Source of the DNA: Mobula hypostoma
Taxonomy: Eukaryota
Reading direction: 5' to 3'
NCBI RefSeq assembly: GCF_963921235.1
Contig: NC_086108.1
Coordinates: 3,720,001 to 3,784,000, forward strand
DNA: 64,000 nucleotides
The notes below the pieces were generated by a model. The model was not told the DNA's origin. It was given only the letters and a program-made list of their open reading frames with translations, and did no database searches. Shown here one piece after another: positions 1,226 through 64,000 of this stretch. Each line of letters starts with the position of its first letter. Position 1 is the first letter of the stretch. Position numbers and translations under genes: made by a program.

Positions 1226-1444
1226 TTACTCTCATTTTATTGTAATTTGAGTATTTGCAGAGTTTTTCTCCAGGTTTTAATCCATATTTATGCAAGGGAA
1301 ATGGCCCAATCAGGAATCGAACTCAGGTCACTGGGTTGAAAGTCTGGCTGAGAGGACTGAGAGTGAACCCCATTGCAGAAACCGTGGTGCAGACAAAAGT
1401 TGATATGCAGCAGATTCAAAAGCATGCTTTACTTTTTTTTAGCC

Positions 1445-1950
1445 AAGATGGTAGTGGATTTGGCCCAGTACGACACAGGTAAAGCCCTCCCAACTATTGA
1501 GCACCTCTACATGAAACACTGTCAGAGGAAAGCAGCATCCATCATCAGAGATCCCCACCACCCAGGCCATGCTCTCTTCTTGTTGCTGCCATCAGGTAAA
1601 ACATACAAGAGCCTCAGGACTCTCGCCACCAGGTTCAAGAACAGTTCCTACCCCTTACCATCAGGCTCTTGAACAAAAGGGGATAACTACACTCACTTCC
1701 CCATCATTGAGATGTTCCTGCAACCAATGATCTCACTTTAAGGATTCTTTATCTCATTATCTCATGGTCTCATTATCTATTGCTTTTTTTTATATTTGGA
1801 TTTGCACAGTTTGTTGTCTTCTGCACTCTGGTTGATCTTTCATTGATCCTGTTATAGTTACTATTCTGAGTATGCCCGCAAGAAAATGATTCTCAAGGTT
1901 GTATATGGCGACATAAATGTACTTTGATAATAAAATTTACTTTGAACTTT
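1445..1950 (+). mobile_element. Rex1/Babar-like LINE 3' end
   Basis: Encodes ...KAASIIRDPHHPGHALFLLLPSGKTYKSLRTLATRFKNS..., then a 3' UTR ending aataaaatttactttgaactttg. This is a single-copy version of the segment that forms the 95-bp satellite. Confidence 0.7.
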
Positions 1951-2609
1951 GTGACGGGCAAAAACAGGCAACCAGTCCAACTCAAAAATGCAGAAATGCA
2001 AACACAAATGCAGAAATCCAACTCCTTGATGTACACGTATATTCCAGGAATAGCAGGCAGCAAGCCGCAGAGAATCTCAGAAAAAAACACAGACAATCTC
2101 AAAAAAAGAGAGGCTCTTGCTACTTACAAGATCTCACTTTAAGATTGAACAAACTAAGGTACAGGAAGCAGGGTTTAAATACACAGATGTTAATTAGGAA
2201 CGAGTTCAGTCAATGATAATAACAAGCGAGTCCTATCGGTTCTGGGAAGAAAACCCTTGGGGATCTATGTCTGTCCCTGCTGGCCAACCCCAGAATAGAC
2301 CGGAGTCCTCACAATTCACTGAATCTGATTAACTATACTGGAATTCTTTTGAGATGAGTTGGTCTGTGTTCCAAACAGTTTGCCTATCATTGTGTTTGTC
2401 AATTGCTGGACATAATACAGGATGAATCTGATTTTCAAAAGTGGCAAGGTGTGACCAGTGTTTTCTGCTTTCAGTGTGATTGGGAGTGATGAATCAAGAT
2501 TTTCAAACATCTACCATTACTTAACCCACCTCGACAGGACACACTTTCTCCTCTCAGTGGGATAAAAGTGTTTTGGGACTGTAATGGGCTCCAAAGCACT
2601 CAGAGACAC

Positions 2610-3925
2610 TTCAAAGTTCAAAGAAAACTTATTATCAAAGTACATATGTATTATCATATACAACCCTGAGATTCGTTTTCTTGTGGACATTCACAATAAA
2701 TCCAACAACTATAATAGAATCAGTGAAATACATACCACACCCAACAGGGCAGACAATCAGAGTACAGAAGGCCAACAAATGCAAATACAAACAGAAAGAA
2801 ATAATAATAATAAACAAATAAACAACAAATATCCAGAACATGAGATGAAGAGTCTTTGAAAGTGAGTTCATAGGTTGTGGGAATATTTCAATGATGGGGC
2901 AAGTGAAGTTGAATGTAGTTATCCCCTTTAGTTCAGGAGCTTGATGGTTGTGGGGTAATAACTGTTCCTGAACCTGGTGGTGTGGGACCTGAGGCTCATT
3001 GTGGTGAGTGAAGTTATCCACACTGGTTCAGGAGCCTGATGGTTGTGGGGTAATAACTGTTCCTGAACCTGGTGGTGTGGGACCTGAGGGTCATTGTGGT
3101 GAGTGAAGTTATCCACACTGGTTCAGGAGTCTGATGGTTGTGGGGTAATAACTGTTCCTGAACCTGGTGGTGTGGGACCTGAGGCTCATTGTGGGGAGTG
3201 AAGTTATCCACACTGGTTCAGTAGCCTGATGGTTGTGGGGTAATAACTGTTCCTGAACCTGGTGGTGTGGGACCTGAGGCTCATTGTGGTGAGTGAAGTT
3301 ATCCACACTGGTTCAGGAGCCTGATGGTTGTGGGGTAATAACTGTTCCTGAACCTGGTGGTGTGGGACCTGAGGGTCATTGTGGTGAGTGAAGTTATCCA
3401 CACTGGTTCAGGAGCCTGATGGTTGTGGGGTAATAACTGTTCCTGAACCTAGTGGTGTGGGACCTGAGGCTCATTGTGCTGAGTGAAGTTATCCACACTG
3501 GTTCAGGAGCCTGATGGTTGTGGGGTAATAACTGTTCCTGAACCTGGTGGTGTGGGACCTGAGGCTCCTGTACCTCCTTCCCACTGGTAGCAGTGAGAAG
3601 AGAGTATGTCCTGGGTGGTAGGGATCCCTGATGATGGATGCTGCTTTCCTGCGACAACATTTCATGTAGTGCTCAATGGTGGGGAAGGATTTTACTTATG
3701 ATGGACTGGACCACATCCACTACTTCTTTGTAGGATTTTCCGTTCAAGGGCATTGGTGTTTCCATACCAGGCTGTGACGCAGCTGGTCAGTATACTCTCC
3801 ACTACACATCTATAGAAGTTTGTCAAAGTTTTAGATGTCGTGCTGAACCCGCAAACTTCTAAGGAAGCAGGGGCACTGCTGTGCTTCCTTTGTAATGGCA
3901 CCAAGTGCTGGGCCAGGGCAGGTAC
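2610..3925 (-). mobile_element. Rex1/Babar-like LINE 3' fragment containing a 95-bp mini-array
   Basis: Minus-strand TLTNFYRCVVESILTSCVTAWYGN and a 3' tail (ttcaaagttcaaag on +) flank the array. Confidence 0.75.
2918..3567. repeat. 95-bp tandem array, about 7 copies
   Basis: Same unit as the terminal satellite. ORF-track entries recur every 95 bp. Confidence 0.95.
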
Positions 3926-15330: not shown

Positions 15331-15336
15331 TAGGCT

Positions 15337-20442: not shown

Positions 20443-20594
20443 CAACTCCACGGAAACAGCGCAGGGAGAGAACGACCTTCACCCGTGCACAGCTGGACAT
20501 CCTGGAGTCTCTCTTCGCCAAGACTCGCTACCCTGACATCTTCATGCGGGAAGAGGTGGCACTAAAGATCAATCTCCCCGAGTCCAGAGTTCAG
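20443..20594 (+). CDS. otx5: Otx5/Crx coding exon 2 (152 nt), homeodomain helices 1-3 start
   Basis: Acceptor tttctgcctcAG (20441-20442), then (T)[50 protein letters not shown], then donor CAG|GTAAGA. Exons 1+2 total 249 nt, so the frame is preserved. Confidence 0.96.
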
Positions 20595-33612: not shown

Positions 33613-33828
33613 CCAGAGCAACACACACAAAGTGCTGGAGGAACTCAACGGGTCAGACAGTGTCGATGGTCAGAGTAACACACACAAAATGCTGGAGGAA
33701 CTCAGCAGGTCAGACAGTGTCGATGGTCAGAGTAACACACACAAAATGCTGGAGGAACTCAGCAGGTCAGACAGTGTCGATGGTCAGAGTAACACACACA
33801 AAATGCTGGAGGAACTCAGCAGGTCAGG
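33613..33828. repeat. 57-bp tandem array, about 4 copies
   Basis: Unit cagagtaacacacacaaaatgctggaggaactcagcaggtcagacagtgtcgatggt. Confidence 0.9.
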
Positions 33829-34649
33829 AAGCATATATGGAAATGAATAAACAGCCAATGTTTTGGACCAAGGCCTTCATCAGCCAGATAAGGGATCCAA
33901 ATGTTGGTAGCTTGCAGAGGCAGTGTGGAAGCGTAGACAGAGTCAGTGGAGGTCAAGCTGATTTCTGTAATGGAAATGGGTCATGTCCATAATCTCCATA
34001 ATTGCCTTATCCTGCTGAGTGAGAGCTTCTATAGAGGGGAGTAACCAGTTGATGTTTCAGGCTGAGACCCTGCATCATGTCCTGTTAAACTGTCTTAGCT
34101 CAAAATGTTGACTCTTTATTCCTTTCCACCAATGCTGCCTGACCTGCCGAATTCCTCCAGCATTTTGTGTGTGTTACTCTGACCATCGACACTGTCTGAC
34201 CTGCTGAGTTCCACTTCTGCTGCCAGCTCATTCCAAACTCTCACCATCCTCTGAGCGAAGAGGTCCCCCCTCATGTTTCCTTAAACCTTTCACTATCAGC
34301 CCATGATCACTAGGTCTAGTCTCACCCATCCTCAGAGGAAAAAGCCTATCTATACCCCTCGTAATTTTGTGCTCCTTTATCATTCTCCAACATTCCAGGG
34401 ATTAAAGTCCTAACCTGTTCAACCTTTCCCGATAACTCAGGTATTTAAGTCCTGGCAACATGCTTGTAAATGTTCTTTGCACTCTTTCAACCTTATTGAC
34501 ATTTTGTGTTTATGAGTGAGAGGAGATGCTTTGACAGTGGAATCTTGCTGTGCATCATAGGAAGTGACTGGGGTTGTGGCACACTCCCGACGGGGCTCAG
34601 AAAGGCTAGGACGTTTGTTCTAATCTCTGTTTTTACCGTCCCCGTGAAG

Positions 34650-43332: not shown

Positions 43333-43351
43333 GTGTGTGTGTGTGTGTGTG

Positions 43352-43435
<84 letters not shown>

Positions 43436-43484
43436 TGTCAGTGTGTGTGTGTGTGAGTGTGTGTCTGTCTGTGTGTGTGTGTGG

Positions 43485-43521
<37 letters not shown>

Positions 43522-43522
43522 T

Positions 43523-43556
<34 letters not shown>

Positions 43557-43611
43557 CTGTGTGTGTGTGTGAGTGTGTCTGTCTGTGTGTGTGTGTGTGT
43601 GTGTGTGCGTG

Positions 43612-43678
<67 letters not shown>

Positions 43679-43701
43679 CTGTGTGTGTGTGTGAGTGTGT
43701 C

Positions 43702-43788
<87 letters not shown>
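43333..43788. repeat. Interrupted (TG)n microsatellite, about 455 bp
   Basis: Read directly. It has expanded from the gtgtgtgttgc tract of a Penelope-derived repeat that flanks both sides. Confidence 0.97.
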
Positions 43789-46490: not shown

Positions 46491-46934
46491 ATCTTCTCTG
46501 TTTCAATCTCTCTATTTAACTACTTATTATTTATTTGATGCTATTTATTTATTTATTTATTTATCTGTCTATATGTCTATGTCCTTATTTATTATAACTT
46601 ACAGTAATTTTTGAGTCACTACCTAACTTCCCAAGTGCAGTCTGTTGTTAGAACTGACAAGATACTGCCCACTAAGTTTAAAGTAAATTTATTATCGAAG
46701 TACATATGTATCATCATATACAACCCTGTGATTCTTTTTCATGTGGACATTTACAATACAAAGAAAAAAAGAAATACCATGAAACGTAATAGAATCGATG
46801 AAATCCACACGTAACAGGATGGACAAACAAAAACAATTATGCAAATATAAATAAATAGACAATAAATATCGAGAATGTGAGGGGAAAAGACCTTGAAAGG
46901 GAGTCCATAGGTTGTGGGATCAGTTCAGAGTTGA

Positions 46935-47404
46935 GGTGAGTGAAGTTATCCACATTGGTTCAGGAGCCTGATGGTTGTGGGGTAATAACTGTTCCTGAAG
47001 CTGGCGGTGTGGGACCTGAGGCTCATTGTGGTGAGTGAAGTTATCCACACTGGTTCAGGAGTCTGATGGTTGTGGGGTGATAACTGTTCCTGAACCTGGT
47101 GGTGTGGGACCTGAGGCTCATTGAGGTGAGTGAAGTTATCCACACTGGTTCAGAAGCCTAATGGTTGTGGGGTAATAACTGTTCCTGAACCTGGTGGTGT
47201 GGGACCTGAGGCTCATTGTGGTGAGTGAAGTTATCCACACTGGTTCAGGAGCCTGATGGTTGTGGGGTAATAACTGTTCCTGAACCTGGTGGTGTGGGAC
47301 CTGAGGCTCATTGGGGTGAGTGAAGTTATCCACACTGGTTCAGGAGCCTGATGGTTGTGGGGTAATAACTGTTCCTGAGCCTCCTGGTGTGGGACCTGAG
47401 GCTC
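46935..47404. repeat. 95-bp tandem array, about 5 copies, inside a Rex1/Babar-like 3' fragment (46675-47550)
   Basis: Same unit as the terminal satellite. The host resumes at gaggctcctgtaccctctgcc. Confidence 0.95.
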
Positions 47405-48536
47405 CTGTACCCTCTGCCTGATGGCAGCAGGGAGAGAGAGCATGTCCTGGGTAGTGGGGGTCCCTGATCATGGATGCTGCTTTCCTGCCACAATGCTCCA
47501 CGTGGATGTGCTTAACGGTGGGGAGGGCTTTACCCGTGATGGACTGGTCCGCAATACCCAACTTTACACAAAATCTCTTGTGTTCAACGTGTAACCAATT
47601 CACTCTGAATAAAGAACCTCCCTTGTAGTCCTCAATTATATTTAAAAGTGATTCACTCTGGACACACAAGGGAATCTTCTGAGAGACAAGGGAAGTCTCG
47701 ATTTACTCCAGAGCAACACACACACACAATCTGCTGGAGGAACTCAGCAGGTCAGGCAACATCTTGGAAATAAATAAACAGCCAATGATTCCCCCTTCTT
47801 CAGGACTGAGAAGGAAGGAAGGGGGAAGAAGGCAGAATGACATGGTGGGAGAAAGAGGAAGGCTAGCTGGAAGGTGATAAGTGAACAAACAAAAGAAATA
47901 CTGGAAATCTGAGCAACACACACAAAATGCTGAAAGAACTCAACAGGCCGGGCAGCATTTCTGGAAAAGAGTACAGTCGGCATTTCGGGCCGAATCTCTT
48001 CAGCAGGACTGGAGAATAAAAAGCTGAAGAGTAGATTTTAAAGGTGGGGTGAGAGAGAAACACAAGGTGACAGGTGAACCTGGGAGGGGGAAGGATGGAG
48101 TAAAGAGCTGGGAAGTTGATTGGTGAAAAAGACAGAAGGCCATGGAAGAAAGAAAAGGCGGGAGAAGCTCCAGAGGGAGGTGATGGGCGGGCAAGGAGAT
48201 GAGATGAGATGAGGGAGGAAAAGGGGATGGGAAATGGTGACGGGGAGTTGGGGGGCATCGGTGATGGGTGAAGCTAGATGTGTGGTAAAGGTCAAGGGCT
48301 GGAGAGGAAGGAGTCTGACAGGAGAAGAGTGAACATAAGGAGGAGAGGTCCCAGGTTGAGGTGATGGGCAGGTGAGAAGAGGTAAGAGGCAGACATCACA
48401 GACGAGGCAGCAGTGAGAGACGGTCTCACTGAACTCCGTCAAAGAGAAGATTTAAACAGGGAGAGCATGCCTCAAAGAGACTTGGCAGGTGAGCAGCTAA
48501 CCATAAACAGGAGAGATTCTGCAGATGCTGGAAATC

Positions 48537-49250
48537 CAGAGCAACACACACAAAATGCCAGAGGAACTCAACAGGTCAGACAGTGTCGATGGTCAGAGTA
48601 ACACACACAAAATGCTGGAGGAACTCAGCAGGTCAGACAGTGTCGATGGTCAGAGTAACACACACAAAATGCTGGAGGAACTCAGCTGGTCAGACAGTGT
48701 CGATGGTCAAAGTAACACACACAAAATGCTGGAGGAACTCAACAGGTCAGACAGTGTCGATGGTCAGAGTAACACACACAAAATGCTGGACGAACTCAGC
48801 AGGTCAGACAGTGTCGATGGTCAGAGTAACACACACAAAATGCCGGAGGAACTCAACAGGTCAGACAGTGTCGATGGTCAGAGTAGCACACACAAAATGC
48901 TGGAGGAACTCAGCAGGTCAGACAGTGTCGATGGTCAGAGTAACACACACAAAATGCTGGAGGAACTCAGCAGGTCAGACAGTGTCGATGGTCAGAGTAA
49001 CACACACAAAATGCCAGAGGAACTCAGCAGGTCAGACAGTGTCGATGGTCAGAGTAACACACACAGAATGCCAGAGGAACTCAACAGGTCAGACAGTGTC
49101 GATGGTCAGAGTAACACAGACAAAATGCTGGAGGAACTCAGCAGGTCAGACAGTGTCTGAGCCCAGAGTAACACACACAAAATGCTGGAGGAACTCAGCA
49201 GGTCAGACAGTGTCGATGGTCAGAGCAACACACACAAAATGCAGGAGGAG
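48537..49250. repeat. 57-bp minisatellite, about 12 copies
   Basis: Same unit as 33613-33828, embedded in a Penelope-derived repeat. Confidence 0.95.
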
Positions 49251-51720
49251 CTCAGCAGGCCAGGCAGCATCTATGGAGGGGAATAGGCCGAGAAAGTTTA
49301 GGCCGAGAACTTCCATCAGGACTGGAAAAGAAGGATCCAGGATAAGAAGGTGGGAGGGAGACGAAGACAAGCTGGTATGTGATAGGCGAAGCCAATTGAG
49401 TGGGTGGGGGACGGGAGAATGGTGAGAAGCTGGGAGGTGATGTGGAAAAATTAAAAGGCTGGAGAAGAAAAAATAGAACAGAACTTTATTGTCATTGCTC
49501 AAGACAACGAGATTGTGGTGCTACTCCAGTCTGTGCAAAACAGATATTTACAATCCATGCGGTACGGCTTAATTAAAAAATTCCCATATTTACATGCAAC
49601 AAGTGTCTTTGATAGTCCATAACAGTCAAAGGCGATTGCTTGAAATATTCAGCTGCACAATAGCCCTGGGGAAGAAGCTGTATTTCAGTCTTACTGTTTT
49701 GGCTAAGATGTTTCTGTATCTCCTACCAGATGGCAGGAGATTGAACGGACAGTGTCTGGGATGGAATGGGATGGGTCTTTAGTGAGGTTACGAGCTGCAG
49801 TAGGCATCGAGAGATGCAGATCAGCTCCAAGTCCAGTAGTTGAGTCCCAGTGGAGTGCTGAGCCGTCCTGATCACCCATTGGAATGCTTTGTGATCTGTC
49901 TTGCTGCAGCTAGAGTCCCACCCTGACATTCCATATGTCAGTATGCTCTCTGTCGCACATCAATCAAAGTTGGCCCGAGATTTTTGGGGCAGATTAGCTC
50001 CCATTGGGCACCTCAGGTACTTTGCTAGCTGTCGTGTCTTCCCTACTATCAAGGTTGTGTTGATGGTCCACGAGAGTCCCTCAGTGATGTTCATCCCCAA
50101 AAACATAGAACTGGAGATCCTTTCCGCTACTGGCCATTTATGTTGGAGTAGTGGGGAATCTGATAGGAGAGGAGCGTGGACTGTGGGAGAAAGGGAAGAA
50201 GGGGGATTTACACTGCCATAATACAGGTATAACAATGTAGACCCTAGTAAGTAAAATTTACTCAACAACACACATCAAAGTTGCTGGTGAATGCAACAGG
50301 CGTTTTACTGTTTACTGTTAAAATTTACTGTTATCCAAGTACATATATGTCACCACATACTACTCTAAGATTCATTTTCTTGTGGGCATTCATAGGAAAA
50401 TAAGGAGACTATAGAATTTCCAAAAAACTATACATAATCAAACACTGACAAACAACCAATGTGCAAAACAAAAGATGAATTTTGCAAATAAAGAATTAAT
50501 ATTGAGAAGGCATGTGTAAATATTGGACCGGTACTCTAATGGTTAGCAAATGCTTTACAGTACCAGTGACCTGGGTTCAATTCCCGATGCTGCCTGTAAG
50601 GAGTTTGTACGTTCTCCCTGCAACCACGTGGGTTTCCTCCTGGTGCTCCAGTTTCCTCCCACAGTCCAAAGACGTACTGGTTGGTAGGTTAATTGGTCAT
50701 TGTAAACTGTCCCGTGATTAGGCCAGGGTTAAACTGGGGGTTGCTGGGCAGCATGGCTCGAGCAGCCAGAAGGGCCTATTCTGCGTGCTACCTCAATCAA
50801 TCAATCAATAAATACTGACAAACTTTTACCTCTTCTCACCTGCCTATCACTTCCCTCTGGTCCCTCCTATGATCCATACTCTTTGCCTATCAGATTCCTT
50901 CTTCCCCAGCCCTTCATCTTTCCCATTCACCTGGTTCCACCTATCACCTTCTAGCTAGCCTCTTTCCCCTCCCTCCCCCCGCTTTTTATTCTGGTATCTT
51001 CCCCCCTTCCTTACCAGTCCTGAAGAAGTGTCTTGGCCTGAAACATCGACTATTTACTCAATTCCATAGATGCTGCCTGGCCTGCTGAGTACCTCCAGCG
51101 TTTGCATGTTTTGCTCTGGGGTTCCAGCATCTGAAGAATCTCTTGTGTAAATAATATTGAGAACATGACTTTAGACCCTAGCCCAATGCCATCATCTCAA
51201 AGGGAGTTGCCTGATGTAATGCAGCCCACTTGGCTAGATGTACGAAGCCCCACCAACACAAGAGCTTTGGGATCATCCAGGACAAAGCAGCTTGGAATCC
51301 CACCCAACCCAATACCCTCAACATTTCCTGCCTCCCCCACCGGAGCACAGTGGCTGCACCGTGCTTCACCTACAAACACAATGCACTCATTCTAACAGGT
51401 GTCTCCGACAGACCTGTGACTTCTACTACCCAGAAAGAATGGTATCAGAGCTACAGGACGATTAACCAGAAAGTCAATGGTAGTAGAGGTACAGGACTAC
51501 TACCCAGAAAGTCAATAGTAACAGAGGTAAAAGACTACTTCCCGGAAAAACAATGGTAGTAGAGGTACAGAACGTCCCAGAAAGACAATGGTAGCAGAAG
51601 TACAGGACTACTAACCAGAAAGAATGGTAGCAGAGCTACAGGACAACAACCTCCCTCTCTGGCAGTGGTTCCCAAATTTCTTATGCCATGGACCAATGCC
51701 TTTAAACAAGGGGTCCACGG

Positions 51721-52242
51721 CCACACTCAGGTTGGAGGAGCAACACCTTATATTCCGTTTGGGTAGCCTCCAACCTGATGGCATGAACATTGACTTCTCT
51801 AACTTCCGCTAAGGCCCCACCTCCCCCTCGTACCCCATCCTTTATTTATTTATATACACACATTCTTTTTCTCTCTCTCCTTTTTCTCCCTCTGTCCCTC
51901 TGACTATACCCCTTGCCCATCCTCTGGGTTTCCCCCCCCCCTTGTCTTTCTCCCTGGGCCTCCTGTCCCATGATCCTCTCATATCCCTTTTGCCAATCGC
52001 CTGTCCAGCTCTTGGCTCCATCCCTCCCCCTCCCGTCTTCTCCTATCATTTCAGATCTCCCTCTCCCCTTCCCACTTTCAAATCTCTTACTGCTCTTCTT
52101 TCAGTTAGTCCTGACGAAGGATCTCAGCCCGAAACATCAACTGTGCCTCTTCCTAGAGATGCTGCCTGGCCTGCTGCGTTCACCAACAACTTTGATGTGT
52201 ATTGATTGAAATTCCAGCATCTGCAGATTTCCTCATGTTTGC
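51721..52242 (+). mobile_element. Penelope-derived insertion splitting a hAT-like MITE
   Basis: RLEEQHLIFRLGSLQPDGMNIDFSNFR* (GIY-YIG C-terminus). The 8-mer gtccacgg is duplicated at 51713-51720 and 52243-52250. Confidence 0.75.
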
Positions 52243-52482
52243 GTCCACGGTAAATGACTGCTCTGTGCTCACACACTGAGTTCAAGGTTCAAAGTAAATT
52301 TATTATTAAATTTCATATATTGTGTGTCACCATGAGCTACCCTGAGATTCATCTTCTCACGGACACTCAGAACACAAAAACACAACAGAATCAATGAAAA
52401 GCTACTCACAAAGACCAACAAACAACCAATGTGAAAAAGACAACAGACAGATAGATGACAGACAGACACACACACACAGACA

Positions 52483-54078
52483 AGTGCCTATAAAAAATAT
52501 TCAACCACCCCCCCAGAACTTTTCCTGTTTTATTGTTTTACAACACTGAATCGCAGTGAATTTAATTTGTTGTTTTTTACACTGATCAACCGAAAAGATT
52601 CTTTCGTGTCAAAGTGAAAACAACTTCTACAAATTGGTATAAATTTATTACAATTATTAAACAAAAAATAATTGATTGCATAAGTATTCACCCCCTTCAA
52701 GTCAGTATTCAGTAGATGCACCTTTGGCAGCAATTACAGCCTTGAGTCTGTGTGGATAGGTCTCTATCAACTTTGCACTTTTGAACACTTGCAATTTTTC
52801 CCCATTCTCCTTTAAAAAACTGCTCAATCTCTATCAGATTGCATGGGGATCGTGAGTGAACAGCCCTTTTCAAGTCCAGCCACAAATTCTCAATTGGATT
52901 GAGGTCTGGTCTCTGACTTGGCCACTTCAAGACATTAACCTTGAAGTTTTTAAGTCAATCCTGTTTATCTTTGGCTTTATGCTTGGGGTCATTGTCTTGC
53001 TGGAAAACAAGTCTCCCAAGTCGCAGTTCTCTTGCGGACTGCATCAGGTTTTCCTCCAGGATTTCCCTGTATTTTGCTGCATTCATTTTACCATCTACCT
53101 TCACAAGCCTTCCAGGACCCACTGCAGTGAAGCATCCCCACAGCATGATGCAGCCACCACCATGCTTCATGGTAGGGATGGTGTGTTTTTGATGATGTGC
53201 AGTGTTTGGTTTATGCCAAACACAGCATTTAGTCTGATGGCCAAAAAGCTCAACTTTGCTTTTATCAGACCATAGAACCTTCTTCCAGCTGACTTCAGAG
53301 TCTCCCACATGCCTTCTAGCAAACTCTAGATGAGATTTCTTGCGAGCTTTTTTCAACAATGGCTTCCTCTTTGCCACTATCCCATAAAACTGCAACTCGT
53401 GAAGCACCCGGGTAACAGTTGTTGTATGCGCAGTCTCTCCCATCTCAATCACTGAAGCTTGTAACTCCTCCAGAGTTGTCATAGGTCTCTTGGTGGCCTC
53501 CCTCATTAGTCCCCTTCTTGCACGGTCACTCAGTTTTTGAGGACGGCCTGCTCTAGGCAGATTTACAACTGAGCCATATTCTTTCCATTTCTTGATGATT
53601 GACTTAACTGTACTCCAGGGGATATTCAGTGACTTGGAAATTTTCTTGTATCCATCTCCTGACTTGTGCTTTTCAATAACCTTTTTGCAAAGTTGCTTGG
53701 AGTGCTCCTTTGTCTTCATGGTGCAGTTTTTGTTGGGATACTGACTCACCAGCAGTTGAGCCTTCCAGATACAGGTGTATTTTTACTACAATCAATTGAA
53801 ACACCTTGACTGCACACCGGTCTCCAAATACAGATCTCCATTTAACTAATTATGTGATTTCTAAACACAATTGGCTGCACCAGTGAGGATTTGGTGTGTC
53901 ATATTAAAGGGGGTGAATACTTATGCAATCAGTTATTTTGAGTTTTCACTTTGACATGGAAGAGTCTTTTCTGTATACCAGTGTCATAAATGCCAAGTGA
54001 AATCCACTGTGATTCAATGTTGTAAAAACAATAAAATATGAAGACTTCCAAGGGCAGTGAATACTTTTTTATAGGCAC
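52483..54078 (-). mobile_element. Tc1-family DNA transposon with long IR/DR-type TIRs
   Basis: Outer ends gtgcctataaaaaatattca / tgaatacttttttataggcac. Inner repeats ttgcataagtattcaccccc / gggggtgaatacttatgcaa. Confidence 0.92.
52702..53719 (-). pseudogene. Tc1 transposase pseudogene (DD34E)
   Basis: MKTKEHS...GYKKISK...GRPQK...WSD...QQDNDPKH...WPSQRPDLNPIENLW, with 34 codons between the second D and E. In-frame TGA at 52955-52957 and a frameshift near 52790. Confidence 0.92.
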
Positions 54079-54240
54079 ATAGTTAGATAGATAGATGGAT
54101 TAATAGATAAAAAGATAGATAGAGATATAGATAGATAGTTAAAAGATAGAGATAGAGAGATACTGGAGATAGATACTGACAACATGAGTTGAAAAGTGTC
54201 TTTGAAAGTGAGTCTGTAGTTTGCGGAATCAGTTCAGTGT

Positions 54241-57200
54241 TGAAGTTATCAATGTTGGTCCAGGAGCCTGATGGTTGTGGGGTAATAACTGTTCCTGAAC
54301 CTGCTGGTGTGGGACCTGAGGCTCATTGTGGTGAGTGAAGTTATCCACACTGGTTCAGGAGCCTGATGGTTGTGGGGTAATAACTGTTCCTGAAGCTGGT
54401 GGTGTGGGACCTGAGGCTCATTGTGGTGAGTGAAGTTATCCACACTGGTTCAGGAGCCTGATGGTTGTGGGGTAATAACTGTTCCTGAACCTGGTGGTGT
54501 GGGACCTGAGGCTCATTGTGGTGAGTGAAGTTATCCACACTGGTTCAGGAGCCTGATGGTTGTGGGGTAATAACTGTTCCTGAACCTGGTGGTGTGGGAC
54601 CTGAGGCTCATTGTGGTGAGTGAAGTTATCCACACTGGTTCAGGAGCCCGATGGTTGTGGGGTAATAATTGTTCCTGAAGCTGGCGGTGTGGGACCTGAG
54701 GCTCATTGTGGTGGGTGAAGTTATCCACACTGGTTCATGAGCCCGATGGTTGTGGGGTAATAACTGTTCCTGAAGCTGGCGGTGTGGGACCTGAGGCTCA
54801 TTGTGGTGGGTGAAGTTATCCACACTGGTTCAGGAGCCCGATGGTTGTGGGGTAATAACTGTTCCTGAATCTGCTGGTGTGGGACCTGAGGCTCATTGTG
54901 GTGGGTGAAGTTATCCACACTGGTTCAGGAGCCTGATGGTTGTGGGGTAATAACTGTTCCTGAACCTGCTTGTGTGGGACCTGAGGCTCATTGTGGTGGG
55001 TGAAGTTATCCACACTGGTTCAGGAGCCTGATGGTTGTGGGGTAATAACTGTTCCTGAACCTGCTGGTGTGGGACCTGAGGCTCATTGTGGTGAGTGAAG
55101 TTATCCACACTGGTTCAGGAGCCTGATGGTTGTGGGGTAATAACTGTTCCTGAACCTGCTGGTTTGGGACCTGAGGCTCATTGTGGGGAGTGAAGTTATC
55201 CACACTGGTTCAGGAGCCTGATGGTTGTGGGGTAATAACTGTTCCTGAACCTGCTGGTGTGGGACCTGAGGCTCATTGTGGTGAGTGAAGTTATCCACAC
55301 TGGTTCAGGAGCCTGATGGTTGTGGGGTAATAACTGTTCCTGAACCTGGTGGTGTGGGACCTCATTGTGGTGAGTGAAGTTATCCACACTGGTTCAGGAG
55401 CCTGATGGCTGTGGGGTAATAACTGTTCCTGAACCTGCTGGTGTGGGACCTGAGGCTCATCGTGGTGAGTGAAGTTATCCACACTGGTTCAGGAGCCTGA
55501 TGGTTGTGGGGTAATAACTGTTCCTGAACCTGCTGGTGTGGGACCTGAGGCTCATTGTGGGGAATGAAGTTATCCACACTGGCTCAGGAGCCTGATGGTT
55601 GTGGGGTAATAACTGTTCCTGAACCTGCTGGTGTGGGACCTGAGGCTCATTGTGGTGAGTGAAGTTATCCACACTGGTTCAGGAGCCTGATGGTTGTGGG
55701 GTAATAACTGTTCCAGAACCTGGTGGTGTGGGACCTCATTGTGGTGAGTGAAGTTATCCACACTGGTTCAGGAGCCTGATGGCTGTGGGGTAATAACTGT
55801 TCCTGAACCTGTTGGTGTGGGACCTGAGGCTCATTGTGGTGAGTGAAGTTATCCACACTGGTTCAGGAGCCTGATGGTTGTGGGGTAATAACTGTTCCTG
55901 AACCTGGTGGTGTGGGACCTGAGGCTCATTGTGGTGGGTGAAGTTATCCACACTGGTTCAGGAGCCTGATGGTTGTGGGGTAATAACTGTTCCTGAACCT
56001 GCTGGTGTGGGACCTGAGGCTCATTGTGGTGAGTGAAGTTATCCACACTGGTTCAGGAGCCTGATGGTTGTGGGGTAATAACTGTTCCTGAACCTGCTGG
56101 TGCGGGACCTGAGGCTCATTGTGGGGAGTGAAGTTATCCACACTGGTTCAGGAGCCTGATGGTTGTGGGGTAATAACTGTTCCTGAACCTGCTGGTGTGG
56201 GACCTGAGGCTCATTGTGGGGAGTGAAGTTATCCACACTGGTTCAGGAGCCTGATGGTTGTGGGGTAATGACTGTTCCTGAACCTGGTGGTGTGGGACCT
56301 GAGGCTCATTGTGGTGAGTGAAGTTATCCACACTGGTTCAGGAGCCTGATGGTTGTGGGGTAATAACTGTTCCTGAACCTGGTGGTGTGGGACCTGAGGC
56401 TCATTGTGGTGAGTGAAGTTATCCACACTGGTTCAGGAGCCTGACGGTTGTGGGGTAATAACTGTTCCTGAACCTGGTGGTGTGGGACCTGAGGCTCATT
56501 GTGGTGAGTGAAGTTATCCACACTGGTTCAGGAGGCCGATGGTTGTGGGGTAATAATTGTTCCTGAAGCTGGCGGTGTGGGACCTGAGGCTCATTGTGGT
56601 GGGTGAAGTTATCCACACTGGTTCAGGAGCCCGATGGTTGTGGGGTAATAACTGTTCCTGAAGCTGGCGGTGTGGGACCTGAGGCTCATTGTGGTGGGTG
56701 AAGTTATCCACACTGGTTCAGGAGCCCGATGGTTGTGGGGTAATAACTGTTCCTAAATCTGCTGGTGTGGGACCTGAGGCTCATTGTGGTGGGTGAAGTT
56801 ATCCACACTGGTTCAGGAGCCTGATGGTTGTGGGGTAATAACTGTTCCTGAACCTGCTGGTGTGGGACCTGAGGCTCATTGTGGTGGGTGAAGTTATCCA
56901 CACTGGATCAGGAGCCTGATGGTTGTGGGGTAATAACTGTTCCTGAACCTGCTGGTGTGGGACCTGAGGCTCATTGTGGTGAGTGAAGTTATCCACACTG
57001 GTTCAGGAGCCTGATGGTTGTGGGGTAATAACTGTTCCTGAACCTGCTGGTTTGGGACCTGAGGCTCATTGTGGGGAGTGAAGTTATCCACACTGGTTCA
57101 GGAGCCTGATGGTTGTGGGGTAATAACTGTTCCTGAACCTGCTGGTGTGGGACCTGAGGCTCATTGTGGTGAGTGAAGTTATCCACACTGGTTCAGGAGC

Positions 57201-60200
57201 CTGATGGTTGTGGGGTAATAACTGTTCCTGAACCTGGTGGTGTGGGACCTCATTGTGGTGAGTGAAGTTATCCACACTGGTTCAGGAGCCTGATGGCTGT
57301 GGGGTAATAACTGTTCCTGAACCTGGTGGTGTGGGACCTGAGGCTCATTGTGGTGAGTGATGTTATCCACACTGGTTCAGGAGCCTGATGGTTGTGGGGT
57401 AATAACTGTTCCTGAACCTGGTGGTGTGGGACCTGAGGCTCATTGTGGTGGGTGAAGTTATCCACACTGGTTCAGGAGCCTGATGGTTGTGGGGTAATAA
57501 CTGTTCCTGAACCTGGTGGTGTGGGACCTGAGGCTCATTGTGGTGAGTGAAGTTATCCACACTGGTTCAGGAGCCTGATGGTTGTGGGGTAATAACTGTT
57601 CCTGAACCTGCTGGTGTGGGACCTGAGGCTCATTGTGGGGAGTGAAGTTATCCACACTGGTTCAGGAGCCTGATGGTTGTGGGGTAATAACTGTTCCTGA
57701 ACCTGCTGGTGTGGGACCTGAGGCTCATTGTGGGGAGTGAAGTTATCCACACTGGTTCAGGAGCCTGATGGTTGTGGGGTAATGACTGTTCCTGAACCTG
57801 GTGGTGTGGGACCTGAGGCTCATTGTGGTGAGTGAAGTTATCCACACTGGTTCAGGAGCCTGACGGTTGTGGGGTAATAACTGTTCCTGAACCTGGTGGT
57901 GTGGGACCTGAGGCTCATTGTGGTGAGTGAAGTTATCCACACTGGTTCAGGAGCCTGACGTTTGTGGGGTAATAACTGTTCCTGAACCTGGTGGTGTGGG
58001 ACCTGAGGCTCATTGTGGTGAGTGAAGTTATCCACACTGGTTCAGGAGGCCGATGGTTGTGGGGTAATAATTGTTCCTGAAGCTGGCGGTGTGGGACCTG
58101 AGGCTCATTGTGGTGGGTGAAGTTATCCACACTGGTTCAGGAGCCCGATGGTTGTGGGGTAATAACTGTTCCTGAAGCTGGCGGTGTGGGACCTCAGGCT
58201 CATTGTGGTGGGTGAAGTTATCCACACTGGTTCATGAGCCCGATGGTTGTGGGGTAATAACTGTTCCTGAAGCTGGCGGTGTGGGACCTGAGGCTCATTG
58301 TGGTGGGTGAAGTTATCCACACTGGTTCAGGAGCCCGATGGTTGTGGGGTAATAACTGTTCCTGAATCTGCTGGTGTGGGACCTGAGGCTCATTGTGGTG
58401 GGTGAAGTTATCCACACTGGTTCAGGAGCCTGATGGTTGTGGGGTAATAACTGTTCCTCAACCTGCTGGTGTGGGACCTGAGGCTCATTGTGGTGAGTGA
58501 AGTTATCCACACTGGTTCAGGAGCCTGATGGTTGTGGGGTAATAACTGTTCCTGAACCTGCTGGTGTGGGACCTGAGGCTCATTGTGGTGAGTGAAGTTA
58601 TCCACACTGGTTCAGGAGCCTGATGGTTGTGGGGTAATAACTGTTCCTGAACCTGGTGGTGTGGGACCTCATTGTGGTGAGTGAAGTTATCCACACTGGT
58701 TCAGGAGCCTGATGGCTGTGGGGTAATAACTGTTCCTGAACCTGCTGGTGTGGGACCTGAGGCTCATCGTGGTGAGTGAAGTTATCCACACTGGTTCAGG
58801 AGCCTCATGGTTGTGGGGTAATAACTGTTCCTGAACCTGCTGGTGTGGGACCTGAGGCTCATTGTGGGGAATGAAGTTATCCACACTGGCTCAGGAGCCT
58901 GATGGTTGTGGGGTAATAACTGTTCCTGAACCTGCTGGTGTGGGACCTGAGGCTCATTGTGGTGAGTGAAGTTATCCACACTGGTTCAGGAGCCTGATGG
59001 TTGTGGGGTAATAACTGTTCCTGAACCTGCTGGTGTGGGACCTGAGGCTCATTGTGGTGAGTGAAGTTATCCACACTGGTTCAGGAGCCTGATGGTTGTG
59101 GGGTAATAACTGTTCCTGAACCTGGTGGTGTGGGACCTCATTGTGGTGAGTGAAGTTATCCACACTGGTTCAGGAGCCTGATGGCTGTGGGGTAATAACT
59201 GTTCCTGAACCTGCTGGTGTGGGACCTGCGGCTCATTGTGGTGAGTGAAGTTATCCACACTGGTTCAGGAGCCTGATGGTTGTGGGGTAATAACTGTTCC
59301 TGAACCTGCTGGTGTGGGACCTGAGGCTCATTGTGGGGAATGAAGTTATCCACACTGGTTCAGGAGCCTGATGGTTGTGGGGTAATAACTGTTCCTGAAC
59401 CTGCTGGTGTGGGACCTGAGGCTCATTGTGGTGAGTGAAGTTATCCACACTGGTTCAGGAGCCTGATGGTTGTGGGGTAATAAATGTTCCTGAACCTGGT
59501 GGTGTGGGACCTCATTGTGGTGAGTGAAGTTATCCACACTGGTTCAGGAGCCTGATGGCTGTGGGGTAATAACTGTTCCTGAACCTGGTGGTGTGGGACC
59601 TGAGGCTCATTGTGGTGAGTGAAGTTATCCACACTGGTTCAGGAGCCTGATGGTTGTGGGGTAATAACTGTTCCTGAACCTGGTGGTGTGGGACCTGAGG
59701 CTCATTGTGGTGGGTGAAGTTATCCACACTGGTTCAGGAGCCTGATGGTTGTGGGGTAATAACTGTTCCTGAACCTGGTGGTGTGGGACCTGAGGCTCAT
59801 TGTGGTGAGTGAAGTTATCCACACTGGTTCAGGAGCCTGATGGTTGTGGGGTAATAACTGTTCCTGAACCTGCTGGTGTGGGACCTGAGGCTCATTGTGG
59901 GGAGTGAAGTTATCCACACCGGTTCAGGAGCCTGATGGTTGTGGGGTAATAACTGTTCCTGAACCTGCTGGTGTGGGACCTGAGGCTCATTGTGGGGAGT
60001 GAAGTTATCCACACTGGTTCAGGAGCCTGATGGTTGTGGGGTAATGACTGTTCCTGAACCTGGTGGTGTGGGACCTGAGGCTCATTGTGGTGAGTGAAGT
60101 TATCCACACTGGTTCAGGAGCCTGACGGTTGTGGGGTAATAACTGTTCCTGAACCTGGTGGTGTGGGACCTGAGGCTCATTGTGGTGAGTGAAGTTATCC

Positions 60201-63200
60201 ACACTGGTTCAGGAGCCTGACGTTTGTGGGGTAATAACTGTTCCTGAACCTGGTGGTGTGGGACCTGAGGCTCATTGTGGTGAGTGAAGTTATCCACACT
60301 GGTTCAGGAGGCCGATGGTTGTGGGGTAATAATTGTTCCTGAAGCTGGCGGTGTGGGACCTGAGGCTCATTGTGGTGAGTGAAGTTATCCACACTGGTTC
60401 AGGAGCCTGATGGTTGTGGGGTAATAACTGTTCCTGAACCTGCTGGTTTGGGACCTGAGGCTCATTGTGGGGAGTGAAGTTATCCACACTGGTTCAGGAG
60501 CCTGATGGTTGTGGGGTAATAACTGTTCCTGAACCTGCTGGTGTGGGACCTGAGGCTCATTGTGGTGAGTGAAGTTATCCACACTGGTTCAGGAGCCTGA
60601 TGGTTGTGGGGTAATAACTGTTCCTGAACCTGGTGGTGTGGGACCTCATTGTGGTGAGTGAAGTTATCCACACTGGTTCAGGAGCCTGATGGCTGTGGGG
60701 TAATAACTGTTCCTGAACCTGCTGGTGTGGGACCTGAGGCTCATCGTGGTGAGTGAAGTTATCCACACTGGTTCAGGAGCCTCATGGTTGTGGGGTAATA
60801 ACTGTTCCTGAACCTGCTGGTGTGGGACCTGAGGCTCATTGTGGGGAATGAAGTTATCCACACTGGCTCAGGAGCCTGATGGTTGTGGGGTAATAACTGT
60901 TCCTGAACCTGCTGGTGTGGGACCTGAGGCTCATTGTGGTGAGTGAAGTTATCCACACTGGTTCAGGAGCCTGATGGTTGTGGGGTAATAACTGTTCCTG
61001 AACCTGCTGGTGTGGGACCTGAGGCTCATTGTGGTGAGTGAAGTTATCCACACTGGTTCAGGAGCCTGATGGTTGTGGGGTAATAACTGTTCCTGAACCT
61101 GGTTGTGTGGGACCTCATTGTGGTGAGTGAAGTTATCCACACTGGTTCAGGAGCCTGATGGCTGTGGGGTAATAACTGTTCCTGAACCTGCTGGTGTGGG
61201 ACCTGAGGCTCATTGTGGTGAGTGAAGTTATCCACACTGGTTCAGGAGCCTGATGGTTGTGGGGTAATAACTGTTCCTGAACCTGGTGGTGTGGGACCTG
61301 AGGCTCATTGTGGTGAGTGAAGTTATCCACACTGGTTCAGGAGCCTGATGGTTGTGGGGTAATAACTGTTCCTGAACCTGGTGGTGTGGGACCTGAGGCT
61401 CATTGTGGTGGGTGAAGTTATCCACACTGGTTCAGGAGCCTGATGGTTGTGGGGTAATAACTGTTCCTGAACCTGGTGGTGTGGGACCTGAGGCTCATTG
61501 TGGTGAGTGAAGTTATCCACACTGGTTCAGGAGCCTGATGGTTGTGGGGTAATAACTGTTCCTGAACCTGCTGGTGTGGGACCTGAGGCTCATTGTGGGG
61601 AGTGAAGTTATCCACACTGGTTCAGGAGCCTGATGGTTGTGGGGTAATAACTGTTCCTGAACCTGCTGGTGTGGGACCTGAGGCTCATTGTGGGGAGTGA
61701 AGTTATCCACACTGGTTCAGGAGCCTGATGGTTGTGGGGTAATAACTGTTCCTGAACCTGGTGGTGTGGGACCTGAGGCTCATTGTGGTGAGTGAAGTTA
61801 TCCACACTGGTTCAGGAGCCTGACGGTTGTGGGGTAATAACTGTTCCTGAACCTGGTGGTGTGGGACCTGAGGCTCATTGTGGTGAGTGAAGTTATCCAC
61901 ACTGGTTCAGGAGCCTGATGGTTGTGGGGTAATAACTGTTCCTGAACCTGGTGGTGTGGGACCTGAGGCTCATTGTGGTGAGTGAAGTTATCCACACTGG
62001 TTCAGGAGGCCGATGGTTGTGGGGTAATAATTGTTCCTGAACCTGGCGGTGTGGGACCTGAGGCTCATTGTGGTGAGTGAAGTTATCCACACTGGTTCAG
62101 GAGCCTGATGGTTGTGGGGTAATAACTGTTCCTGAACCTGCTGGTGTGGGACCTGAGGCTCATTGTGGTGAGTGAAGTTATCCACACTGGTTCAGGAGCC
62201 TGATGGTTGTGGGGTAATAACTGTTCCTGAACCTGGTGGTGTGGGACCTGAGGCTCATTGTGGTGAGTGAAGTTATCCACACTGGTTCAGGAGCCTGATG
62301 GTTGTGGGGTAATAACTGTTCCTGAACCTGGTGGTGTGGGACCTGAGGCTCATTGTGGTGAGTGAAGTTATCCACACTGGTTCAGGAGCCTGATGGTTGT
62401 GGGGTAATAACTGTTCCTGAAGCTGGCGGTGTGGGACCTGAGGCTCATTGTGGTGGGTGAAGTTATCCACACTGGTTCAGGAGCCTCGATGGTTGTGGGG
62501 TAATAACTGTTCCTGAACCTGGCTGGTGTGGGACCTGAGGCTCATTGTGGTGGGTGAAGTTATCCACACTGGTTCAGGAGCCTGATGGTTGTGGGGTAAT
62601 AACTGTTCCTGAACCTGCTGGTGTGGGACCTGAGGCTCATTGTGGTGGGTGAAGTTATCCACACTGGTTCAGGAGCCTGATGGTTGTGGGGTAATAACTG
62701 TTCCTGAACCTGCTGGTGTGGGACCTGAGGCTCATTGTGGTGGGTGAAGTTATCCACACTGGTTCAGGAGCCTGATGGTTGTGGGGTAATAACTGTTCCT
62801 GAACCTGCTGGTGTGGGACCTGAGGCTCATTGTGGTGAGTGAAGTTATCCACACTGGTTCAGGAGCCTGATGGTTGTGGGGTAATAACTGTTCCTGAACC
62901 TGCTGGTGTGGGACCTGAGGCTCATTGTGTGGATTGAAGTTATCCACACTGGTTCAGGAGCCTGATGGTTGTGGGGTAATAACTGTTCCTGAACCTGCTG
63001 GTGTGGGACCTGATGCTCATTGTGGGTAGTGAAGTTATCCACACTGGTTCAGGAGCCTGATGGTTGTGGGGTAATAACTGTTCCTGAACCTGCTGGTGTG
63101 GGACCTGAGGCTCATTGTGGTGAGTGAAGTTATCCACACTGGTTCAGGAGCCTGATGGTTGTGGGGTAATAACTGTTCCTGAACCTGGTGGTGTGGGACC

Positions 63201-64000
63201 TGAGGCTCATTGTGGTGAGTGAAGTTATCCACACTGGTTCAGGAGCCTGATGGCTGTGGGGTAATAACTGTTCCTGAACCTGGTGGTGTGGGACCTGAGG
63301 CTCATTGTGGTGAGTGAAGTTATCCACACTGGTTCAGGAGCCTGATGGTTGTGGGGTAATAACTGTTCCTGAACCTGGTGGTGTGGGACCTGAGGCTCAT
63401 TGTGGTGGGTGAAGTTATCCACACTGGTTCAGGAGCCTGATGGTTGTGGGGTAATAACTGTTCCTGAACCTGCTGGTGTGGGACATGAGGCTCATTGTGG
63501 TGAGTGAAGTTATCCACACTGGTTCAGGAGCCTGATGGTTGTGGGGTAATAACTGTTCCTGAACCTGCTGGTGTGGGACCTGAGGCTCATTGTGGGGATT
63601 GAAGTTATCCACACTGGTTCAGGAGCCTGACGGTTGTGGGGTAATAACTGTTCCTGAACCTGCTGGTGTGGGACCTGAGGCTCATTGTGGTGGGTGAAGT
63701 TATCCACACTGGTTCAGGAGCCTGATGGTTGTGGGGTAATAACTGTTCCTGAACCTGCTGGTGTGGGACCTGAGGCTCATTGTGGTGAGTGAAGTTATCC
63801 ACACTGGTTCAGGAACCTGATGGTTGTGGGGTAATAACTGTTCCTGAACCTGCTGGTGTGGGACCTGAGGCTCATTGTGGTGAGTGAAGTTATCCACACT
63901 GGTTCAGGAGCCTGATGGTTGTGGGGTAATAACTGTTCCTGAACCTGGTGGTGTGGGACCTGAGGCTCATTGTGGTGAGTGAAGTTATCCACACTGGTTC
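54241..64000. repeat. 95-bp satellite array, about 103 copies, truncated by the window end
   Basis: Unit TGAGTGAAGTTATCCACACTGGTTCAGGAGCCTGATGGTTGTGGGGTAATAACTGTTCCTGAACCTGGTGGTGTGGGACCTGAGGCTCATTGTGG, with occasional 89-bp variants. Confidence 0.99.

What the first reader, a model, noticed from the sequence alone, without database searches (positions are those of the whole stretch)
54180..64000. A 95-bp satellite derived from the 3' end of a Rex1/Babar-like LINE
Seen: the monomer's minus strand reads SLRSHTTRFRNSYYPTTIRLLN, matching the unamplified LINE end at 1610-1700 (YKSLRTLATRFKNSSYP). The left edge of the array grades into LINE 3' UTR sequence (ttgaaagtgagtctgtag, about 54200). Inference: a dispersed retroelement segment has become a homogeneous satellite of at least 9.8 kb, with parent, small-array and large-array stages all visible in one window.
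Basis: partly seen in the sequence, partly recalled or inferred. Interest (0 to 1): 0.7.

Follow-up and report, generated by a model that had tools for sequence, protein, structure and literature searches.

The report
Satellite occupying old LINE tail copies
A 95-base repeat cut from the tail of a jumping gene forms three near-identical arrays, each sitting inside a different, much older copy of that jumping gene in a ray genome, which suggests that the repeat spreads by recombining into its parent's scattered copies; satellites born from mobile elements are known, this route of spread is less well documented.

Summary
A 95-bp array runs from 54,241 to the window end (103 units), and the unit is the ORF2 end plus stop and first UTR bases of an RT + ALKBH8_N/DUF1891 LINE. 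The Rex1/Babar label is only recalled. The 'three stages' reading does not hold. The small arrays (2,910-3,567; 46,931-47,404) have the same junction and majority unit as each other and match the big array, yet their host LINE flanks differ at 52 of 249 sites against 9 of 285 in units (p = 5e-11). One host ends in a tail type found in 0 of 95 internal units. The single copy at 1,609 is a sister, not the parent. A 57-bp SINE-derived repeat shows the same pattern at three loci. Best reading (0.55): one satellite that colonises pre-existing LINE ends by homology-directed repair or circle re-integration. Main rival (0.28): old array-bearing insertions homogenised later. No empty orthologous site was obtained. 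The window holds otx5 of a Mobula-like ray. The scan noted other in-situ TE-born satellites in this genome, but not this unit. New variant of a known kind.

The parts
54241..64000 (-). Array C: 95-bp satellite, 103 junctions, open at the window end; 8 of 102 units carry the same 6-bp deletion; patchwork of duplicated blocks
54169..54240 (-). Remnant of host LINE 3' UTR at array C's edge; the terminal unit turns into host-specific letters from unit position about 65
2910..3567 (-). Array A: 6.9 units, 6 junctions, inside an old LINE end; last unit switches in register to another tail type (positions 57-89); 878 bp upstream of the otx5 start codon
3568..3912 (-). Host LINE A, decayed ORF2 3' part upstream of the array (frameshifts, stops); 64% identical over 36 aa to the stretch of P0004 that overlaps and follows ALKBH8_N/DUF1891
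2610..2909 (-). Host LINE A 3' UTR and tail; orthologous-flank contigs of two other organisms run 24-30 nt into it
46931..47404 (-). Array B: 5 units, 4 junctions, inside another old LINE end; its last unit carries a linked two-site haplotype also in 9 units of array C
47405..47603 (-). Host LINE B, decayed ORF2 3' part
46670..46930 (-). Host LINE B 3' UTR and tail
1431..1951 (+). Single-unit LINE end (sister subfamily, no array); unit-homologous part 1,609-1,700
33614..33827 (+). Parallel case: 57-bp array D (3 junctions) inside a dispersed SINE-like repeat, otx5 intron 2
48537..49267 (+). Parallel case: 57-bp array E (12.8 copies) with the same junction inside another copy of that repeat
34135..34215 (-). 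Parallel case: third locus F with one 57-bp junction, cut on its 5' side by another repeat

Best explanation
It is one satellite family, born once by a tandem duplication of 94 nt spanning the last codons of ORF2, the stop and the first UTR bases of a very abundant LINE, joined by one extra base (shown for the anatomy; 'once' inferred from the shared junction). Because each unit is still homologous to the same slot in every dispersed copy of the parent LINE, the satellite can enter those copies: a break in an old LINE end is repaired from an array (strand invasion with out-of-register return, i.e. ectopic gene conversion), or an array-derived circle recombines in by one crossover. Either route leaves old host 5' flank + run of young units + one hybrid terminal unit + old host 3' UTR, which is what loci A and B show and what the visible edge of C shows (pattern shown; mechanism inferred). 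Arrays then grow in place by unequal exchange or block duplication, as the nested repeats in C indicate (pattern shown; process inferred). No coding or regulatory function is indicated: the 95-nt period breaks the frame and each unit holds a stop.
For: (1) Age mismatch: flanks of A and B differ at 52 of 249 aligned sites, paired internal units at 9 of 285, Fisher p = 5e-11; A and B majority units are identical. Control: the unit slot is not intrinsically conserved, since single-unit LINE ends in the window differ from the unit at 15 of 84, 22 of 77 and 35 of 85 sites. (2) Subfamily mismatch: A's last unit departs from the satellite at positions 57, 68, 70, 71, 73, 82, each shared by 0 of 95 internal units and 0 of 6 A units; four of these (70, 71, 73, 82) are shared with the unlinked single copy at 1,609, so they mark a lineage, not local decay. 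(3) One junction in all three arrays. (4) A linked two-site haplotype occurs in B's last unit and in 9 places in C; each site alone occurs once in C. (5) The host of A is older than the array's homogeneity: orthologous flank contigs differ at 19 of 646 (organism B), 25 of 345 (J) and 35 of 398 (I) sites, and those of B and J run 24 and 30 nt into the LINE tail, while A units differ from their majority at 7 of 570 sites; against half the J and I distances p = 0.03 and 0.002, against B p = 0.8. (6) Replication by an unrelated repeat: 57-bp arrays D and E differ at 21 of 92 flank sites and 1 of 114 unit sites, p = 1.5e-7; 13 single copies differ from the unit core at a mean 6.2 of 38 sites against 1.5 for 18 array units; same junction at 3 loci. 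(7) In all four laid runs, 535-770 contigs continue from the unit's last 15 or so bases straight into LINE UTR, defining the parent tail type and the one-base junction.
Against: No empty orthologous site was seen: no listed contig spans locus A in any run, so seeding by recombination cannot be told from late overwriting of an array that was already there. Only two loci have both ends in view and no genome was held. A's 5' flank cannot be assigned to either tail type (81-83% to all), so A could be a crossover chimera of two LINE copies. The 24-30 nt overlaps fall just short of the tool's 31-nt rule for bridging. One internal B unit carries the same base at position 91 as B's host-like last unit, which fits some local exchange. 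Rates may differ between unit and flank. Direction of transfer is unknown; C need not be the donor.
Confidence: 0.55

Rival explanations
1. Old seeding, late homogenisation: a LINE lineage already carrying a short tandem of this slot retrotransposed long ago; flanks then decayed while inter-locus gene conversion among arrays kept overwriting the units (concerted evolution). Locus A would be an old array fully overwritten, or a crossover chimera.
For: Explains young units in old flanks equally well; terminal units are expected to be the least homogenised; the B-C shared haplotype shows that exchange between arrays or a shared donor exists; concerted evolution is the reading given for squamate sSats (PMC10702118).
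Against: Needs the same tandem in two tail lineages, or an extra crossover at A, whereas the other copy of A's tail type (1,609) is single-unit; needs complete overwriting of arrays of only 5-7 units.
Confidence: 0.28
2. One reading: each LINE copy duplicates its own slot at a sequence-directed hotspot, so single, small and large arrays are successive local stages.
For: Each array lies in register inside a LINE end; other notes of this scan describe satellites grown in place in this genome (unchecked).
Against: Local duplication would copy host alleles, but 0 of 6 A units carry them; A and B majority units are identical while flanks are 21% apart; the same one-base junction is in all three.
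Confidence: 0.06
3. Recent retrotransposition or template switching delivered array-bearing LINE ends, with no later recombination.
For: Tandem repeats embedded in TEs can be dispersed by transposition (PMC6947457 passages; Tetris, PMC4079207 passages).
Against: All parts of one insertion would have the same age; here both flanks are old and frameshifted while units are young, and host A appears to predate the split from organism J.
Confidence: 0.05
4. Array C's length or the sharing between arrays is an assembly or polishing artefact.
For: Array length was not checked with reads; the right end is outside the window.
Against: 45 distinct sequences among 102 units, a recurring 6-bp deletion in 8 units and a run of 6 units repeated in the same order (at most 4 in 1,000 shuffles); A and B units carry mostly private changes absent from C, which collapse or cross-polishing would not give.
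Confidence: 0.06

Closest known systems
SINE-derived satellites (sSats) of squamates, Vassetzky, Kosushkin and Ryskov 2023 (PMC10702118; parts 1-4 of 5 of the text read, supplements not read)
   Same: A fixed internal segment of a retroelement is tandemly repeated at many loci, terminal units run on into the parent element, units are more alike across loci (89%) than the parent copies are (64%), and long arrays are more uniform.
   Different: Here the parent is a LINE coding end and the host is a ray. Both parent flanks are kept at A and B, which that paper calls uncommon. The paper invokes initial duplication plus concerted evolution; its text has no 'gene conversion' or 'extrachromosomal' and one use of 'subfamily', so no host-versus-unit subfamily test appears in the main text.
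Rsp-like insertion into 1.688 clusters in the Drosophila simulans clade, Sproul et al. 2020 (PMC7403614; passages and section 12 read)
   Same: One junction shared by many loci; new arrays appear where a homologous, older repeat already sat; discordance between the incoming unit and its neighbours; ectopic conversion or eccDNA re-integration proposed.
   Different: There two unrelated satellites are joined by microhomology and synteny shows the empty sites; here the landing pad is the satellite's own parent LINE, dispersed as single copies, and the empty site is not yet shown.
LINE-derived satellites: cetacean common satellite (L1 3' part), chicken HinfI/CR1 (3' UTR plus part of ORF2), PROsat (L1 ORF2); seen only in review text and tables (PMC9659126, PMC6947457 passages)
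   Same: Satellite monomers taken from a LINE 3' end or ORF2.
   Different: Different LINE clade and host; as listed in the passages seen they are similarity reports, without arrays standing in register inside parent copies.
TIR-220 of the Tetris foldback transposon, Drosophila virilis (PMC4079207; passages read)
   Same: Short arrays inside TE copies and kb-size arrays of the same unit.
   Different: DNA transposon that carries its internal repeats; short arrays there are less uniform (87%) than long ones (94%), whereas arrays A and B here are as uniform as C (2.7%, 4.6%, 3.6% pairwise).

Membership tests
Satellite / tandem-repeat family derived from a transposable element | Head-to-tail array of a uniform unit | tested here: met
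   103.2 copies, 96% matches; mean distance to majority 2.0% over 102 units
Satellite / tandem-repeat family derived from a transposable element | Unit homologous to part of a dispersed TE | tested here: met
   77.5% over 89 nt to a single LINE end, far above shuffles; tblastn of an RT ORF2 hits units and flanks
Satellite / tandem-repeat family derived from a transposable element | Heterochromatic or (sub)telomeric/centromeric location and genome-wide abundance | not testable with these tools
   No genome held; contig depth is no copy number. The arrays flank a developmental gene (otx5)
Non-LTR retrotransposon with RT + ALKBH8_N/DUF1891 C-terminus (parent) | ORF2 homology to RT-bearing proteins with PF09004 | tested here: met
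   Window pieces are 64% (36 aa) and 54% (68 aa) identical to P0004, which bears PF00078 and PF09004 above cut-off; the window pieces alone had no Pfam hit, 0 of 2
Rex1/Babar clade | RT phylogeny grouping with named Rex1 or Babar elements | not testable with these tools
   No named reference: none of the 120 listed relatives of P0004 is labelled Rex1 or Babar in the names shown; many are teleost, including Xiphophorus maculatus and Takifugu rubripes, where Rex1 was described. The link between DUF1891 and Rex1/Babar is recalled; a DUF1891 search gave 2 unrelated papers
Rex1/Babar clade | AP endonuclease with RT; conserved 3' UTR ending in an oligonucleotide tail (PMC6274825 passages) | tested here: inconclusive
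   Hosts are 5'-truncated ends; 4 of the 120 listed relatives also bear PF03372; a shared 3' UTR ending at one place is seen; tail repeat not characterised
sSat-type retroelement-derived satellite (PMC10702118) | Terminal units extend into the parent element; units more alike across loci than parent copies | tested here: met
sSat-type retroelement-derived satellite (PMC10702118) | Parent is a SINE | tested here: not met
   The 95-bp parent is a LINE ORF2 end; it works like an sSat but is not one. The 57-bp repeat lies in a short dispersed repeat whose SINE status is recalled, not tested (Rfam 0 hits)
Homology-seeded satellite spread (Rsp-like/1.688 type) | Shared junction and discordance between array and host | tested here: met
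Homology-seeded satellite spread (Rsp-like/1.688 type) | Syntenic site without the array in relatives | tested here: inconclusive
   No listed contig spans locus A in 4 of 4 runs

The most novel reading that the evidence does not exclude
Retroelement-born satellites in ray genomes 'home' back into the thousands of dispersed copies of their own parent element: old LINE and SINE copies act as genome-wide landing pads, so that at least two unrelated satellites (95 and 57 bp) spread in gene-bearing DNA by homology-directed repair, with no transposition. In this window 3 of 8 ORF2 ends of the LINE group and 3 of 16 copies of the short repeat carry the junction.
Probability: 0.45. Interest if true: 0.68.

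Novelty: new variant of a known kind. Interest (0 to 1): 0.46.

Why it matters
How a satellite gets from its birthplace to many distant loci is still argued over (transposition, ectopic conversion, circle re-integration). Here every array stands in an exact slot of a datable parent copy, with subfamily markers on both sides, and related rays keep the orthologous flanks. That gives built-in controls: each LINE end is either empty or filled, and conversion tracts can be mapped to the base. A genome-wide survey in the existing ray assemblies would make the question directly testable. If the late-homogenisation rival holds instead, it is an ordinary sSat-like case in a new clade. No function is shown; the closeness of array A to the otx5 start is only noted.

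Tried and rejected
No whole genome was held, so no genome-wide mapping. The exact 30-nt junction had 0 matches in metagenome contigs and 0 in viral contigs; these collections are not expected to hold ray DNA. Empty-site test by contigs: four runs laid on 1,900-3,045 (4 of 23 runs listed); unique-flank contigs stop 24-30 nt inside the LINE tail, none listed crosses the locus, so the result is inconclusive. Summed contig depth over the unit core is 3-7 times that of the neighbouring UTR bins, but the tool states this is no copy number and the core is shared by more LINE subfamilies, so no abundance is claimed. 'Goes back' joints at the stretch end are expected from any single-unit copy and were not used. 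Whether organisms B, I and J carry the junction was not shown. Regular higher-order repeat: mean distance by lag dips near 1, 16, 21 and 36 units but its minimum (2.53) was reached in shuffles (mean 2.83, sd 0.09, lowest 2.41 of 1,000, on 94 intervals from a stricter anchor), so only irregular block duplication is claimed. Structure: the unit has a short internal inverted repeat, z = -1.5 and -2.2 for the two strands, 57-bp unit z = 0.3, 61-bp unit z = -1.5; too weak to call a fragile site. Rfam: 0 hits at gathering score. Coding role rejected: 95 is not a multiple of 3 and all six frames of a two-unit stretch contain a stop. Two of six single-unit alignments (49,611 and 30,795) were unreliable and one (19,678) poor; they were left out of the control. 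Earlier scan notes: none for this unit by sequence, near this place, or by words.
Full report
1. Observation. The UTR letters at C's edge are there; about 70 nt of UTR survive before a (GATA)n tract and a Tc1/mariner element.

2. Setting. The window holds a whole otx5 gene: start codon at 4,445, homeobox exon near 20,450-20,590, last exon 34,650-35,270 with Pfam TF_Otx, 100% identical over 206 aa to a Mobula hypostoma Otx5-like protein, 92% to Hypanus and 90% to Pristis. The host is therefore a myliobatiform ray, Mobula or close kin. Array A ends 878 bp before the start codon; C begins about 19 kb after the stop. The six larger arrays cover 13,786 of 64,000 bp.

3. The parent. Pieces of the flanks are 64% identical over 36 aa and 54% over 68 aa to P0004, a protein with RVT_1 and ALKBH8_N/DUF1891 above cut-off. 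The two window pieces alone had no Pfam hit. P0004 has 4,702 relatives among 8,000 candidates scored, mostly fish among the named ones, none labelled Rex1 or Babar in the 120 rows listed. That this RT + DUF1891 layout is the Rex1/Babar clade is my recollection; a DUF1891 search gave two unrelated papers and the Rex review passages do not mention the domain among the passages seen. So: a non-LTR retrotransposon ORF2 end is shown, the clade name is not. The unit covers the last codons, the stop and the first UTR bases. In all four laid runs 535-770 contigs run from the unit's final bases straight into LINE UTR (loose ends at 2,999), which defines the parent tail type and shows that the junction is parent end + one extra base + parent start.

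4. The arrays are younger than their hosts and foreign to at least one of them. A and B each sit in register inside a LINE end, with decayed ORF2 on one side and UTR on the other. Their flanks differ at 52 of 249 aligned sites (29 of 146 on the 5' side, 23 of 103 on the 3' side), three paired internal units at 9 of 285 (p = 5e-11), and their majority units are identical. Mean pairwise distance is 2.7% within A, 4.6% within B, 3.6% within the first 40 units of C, and 3.6-4.4% between arrays. The slot is not simply conserved: single-unit ends differ from the unit at 15 of 84 (1,609), 22 of 77 (33,487) and 35 of 85 (45,888) sites (three further alignments were poor and left out). All three arrays share one junction. 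A's last unit matches the satellite up to position 56 and then departs at 57, 68, 70, 71, 73 and 82; none of these is in any of 95 internal units examined, nor in the 6 other A units. Four of them are shared with the unlinked copy at 1,609, so A's host belongs to a tail lineage other than the one the unit came from. Local duplication cannot give this. B's last unit carries a linked two-site haplotype found at 9 places in C, while each site alone occurs once in C, pointing to exchange or a shared donor.

5. Dating against relatives. Public runs from several coded organisms hold the stretch. Laid on 1,900-3,045, unique-flank contigs differ at 0 of 695 sites in organism A (possibly the source, so not independent), 19 of 646 in B, 25 of 345 in J and 35 of 398 in I. 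Contigs of A, B and J end 30, 24 and 30 nt inside the LINE tail that begins at 2,610, as expected when unique DNA enters a high-copy repeat; this is just short of the tool's 31-nt bridging rule. So the host LINE probably predates a 7% split, whereas A's units differ from their majority at 7 of 570 sites; p = 0.03 against half the J distance, 0.002 against I, 0.8 against B. No listed contig spans the locus, so the decisive empty site was not seen, and whether the relatives carry the junction was not shown.

6. An independent repeat does the same. A 57-bp unit from a short dispersed repeat has one junction at three loci: 33,614-33,827, 48,537-49,267 and, inverted and cut, 34,135-34,215. The two full loci differ at 21 of 92 flank sites and 1 of 114 unit sites (p = 1.5e-7); 13 single copies differ from the unit core at a mean 6.2 of 38 sites, 18 array units at 1.5. 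A 61-bp array (13,383-15,331) also lies in register in a dispersed repeat but has only one locus here. By tblastn 8 ORF2 ends of the LINE group reach the unit slot, counting C, and 3 carry arrays; 3 of 16 copies of the short repeat found by motif carry its junction.

7. Growth of C. It has 45 distinct sequences among 102 units, the same 6-bp deletion in 8, and a six-unit run repeated in order 21 units apart (at most 4 in 1,000 shuffles); the longest exact repeat is 632 bp at 1,977 bp distance. A regular higher-order period was not supported. This fits unequal exchange or block duplication and argues against a simple collapse artefact, but the length was not checked with reads.

8. Mechanism. 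Shown: one unit, one junction, young arrays in old and partly discordant hosts, hybrid terminal units. Inferred: the satellite arose once, and enters dispersed parent copies by homology-directed repair (ectopic conversion with out-of-register return; that break repair can expand tandem arrays this way is recalled from yeast work) or by single-crossover integration of an array circle (0.55). The main rival is old array-bearing insertions later overwritten by inter-locus conversion, or a crossover chimera at A (0.28); A's 5' flank is 81-83% identical to all others and cannot be assigned. Both readings need ectopic exchange; they differ in whether the host was empty. In-situ stages (0.06), recent retrotransposition alone (0.05) and artefact (0.06) fit poorly.

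9. Comparison with what is known. Closest in anatomy are the squamate SINE-derived satellites (PMC10702118; parts 1-4 of 5 read; supplements not read): internal retroelement segment, many loci, terminal units running into the parent, units more alike than parents; arrays with both parent ends are called uncommon there, and the text does not use 'gene conversion' or 'extrachromosomal'. Closest in mechanism is Rsp-like spread into 1.688 clusters (PMC7403614; passages and section 12). LINE-derived satellites of cetaceans, chicken and hamster were seen only in review passages (PMC9659126; PMC6947457); Tetris TIR-220 in passages (PMC4079207). Passages of PMC10620051 say only that shorter shark chromosomes hold more simple tandem repeats. 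I found no description of this unit, of batoid LINE-derived satellites or of satellite entry into dispersed parent copies in ten searches of the open library; subscription papers and Repbase/Dfam were not covered, so absence is weak. Earlier notes of this scan report other satellites grown inside a SINE, a Penelope-like element and a retrotransposon front end in this genome (unchecked), none for this unit.

10. Verdict. Real, LINE-derived, and not the simple stage series proposed. It works like an sSat and probably spreads like Rsp-like; it is not an sSat by parentage, and Rex1/Babar membership is untested. New variant of a known kind; interest 0.46. The bolder reading, satellites homing into their parent's copies genome-wide, has probability 0.45 and would deserve 0.68.

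Noticed in passing
window 4,445-35,270 (+): A complete three-exon otx5 gene; last exon 100% identical to a Mobula hypostoma Otx5-like protein. Its two introns (about 16 and 14 kb) are packed with repeats, including the 61-bp and 57-bp arrays.
   Followed up: partly
window 33,614-33,827; 34,135-34,215; 48,537-49,267: 57-bp satellite from a short dispersed repeat with one junction at three loci; 57 is a multiple of 3, so array E gives stop-free frames of 217-310 codons, probably without meaning. One unit near 49,113 has a different 7-nt junction stretch.
   Followed up: yes
window 13,383-15,331 (+): 61-bp array (31.9 copies) in register inside a dispersed repeat; internal junctions hold bases that the host's first copy lacks but another single copy (about 25,740) has; the host's 3' side is interrupted by a short element right after the array.
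   Followed up: partly
window 51,423-51,651: Older, degenerate 38-bp array (6.2 copies, 76% matches) with no single-copy homologue elsewhere in the window.
   Followed up: partly
window about 52,480-54,080 (-): Tc1/mariner element with a 275-codon stop-free transposase frame (HTH_SB, HTH_Tnp_Tc3_2) and diverged inverted ends, directly beside array C's edge.
   Followed up: no
window 41,416-41,891 and 51,770-52,240: A 480-bp pair at 88% identity, the closest long dispersed pair in the window outside the arrays.
   Followed up: no
window 43,328-43,788: 460-bp (TG)n microsatellite attached to the end of a copy of the same short repeat whose CA-rich stretch is part of the 57-bp unit.
   Followed up: no
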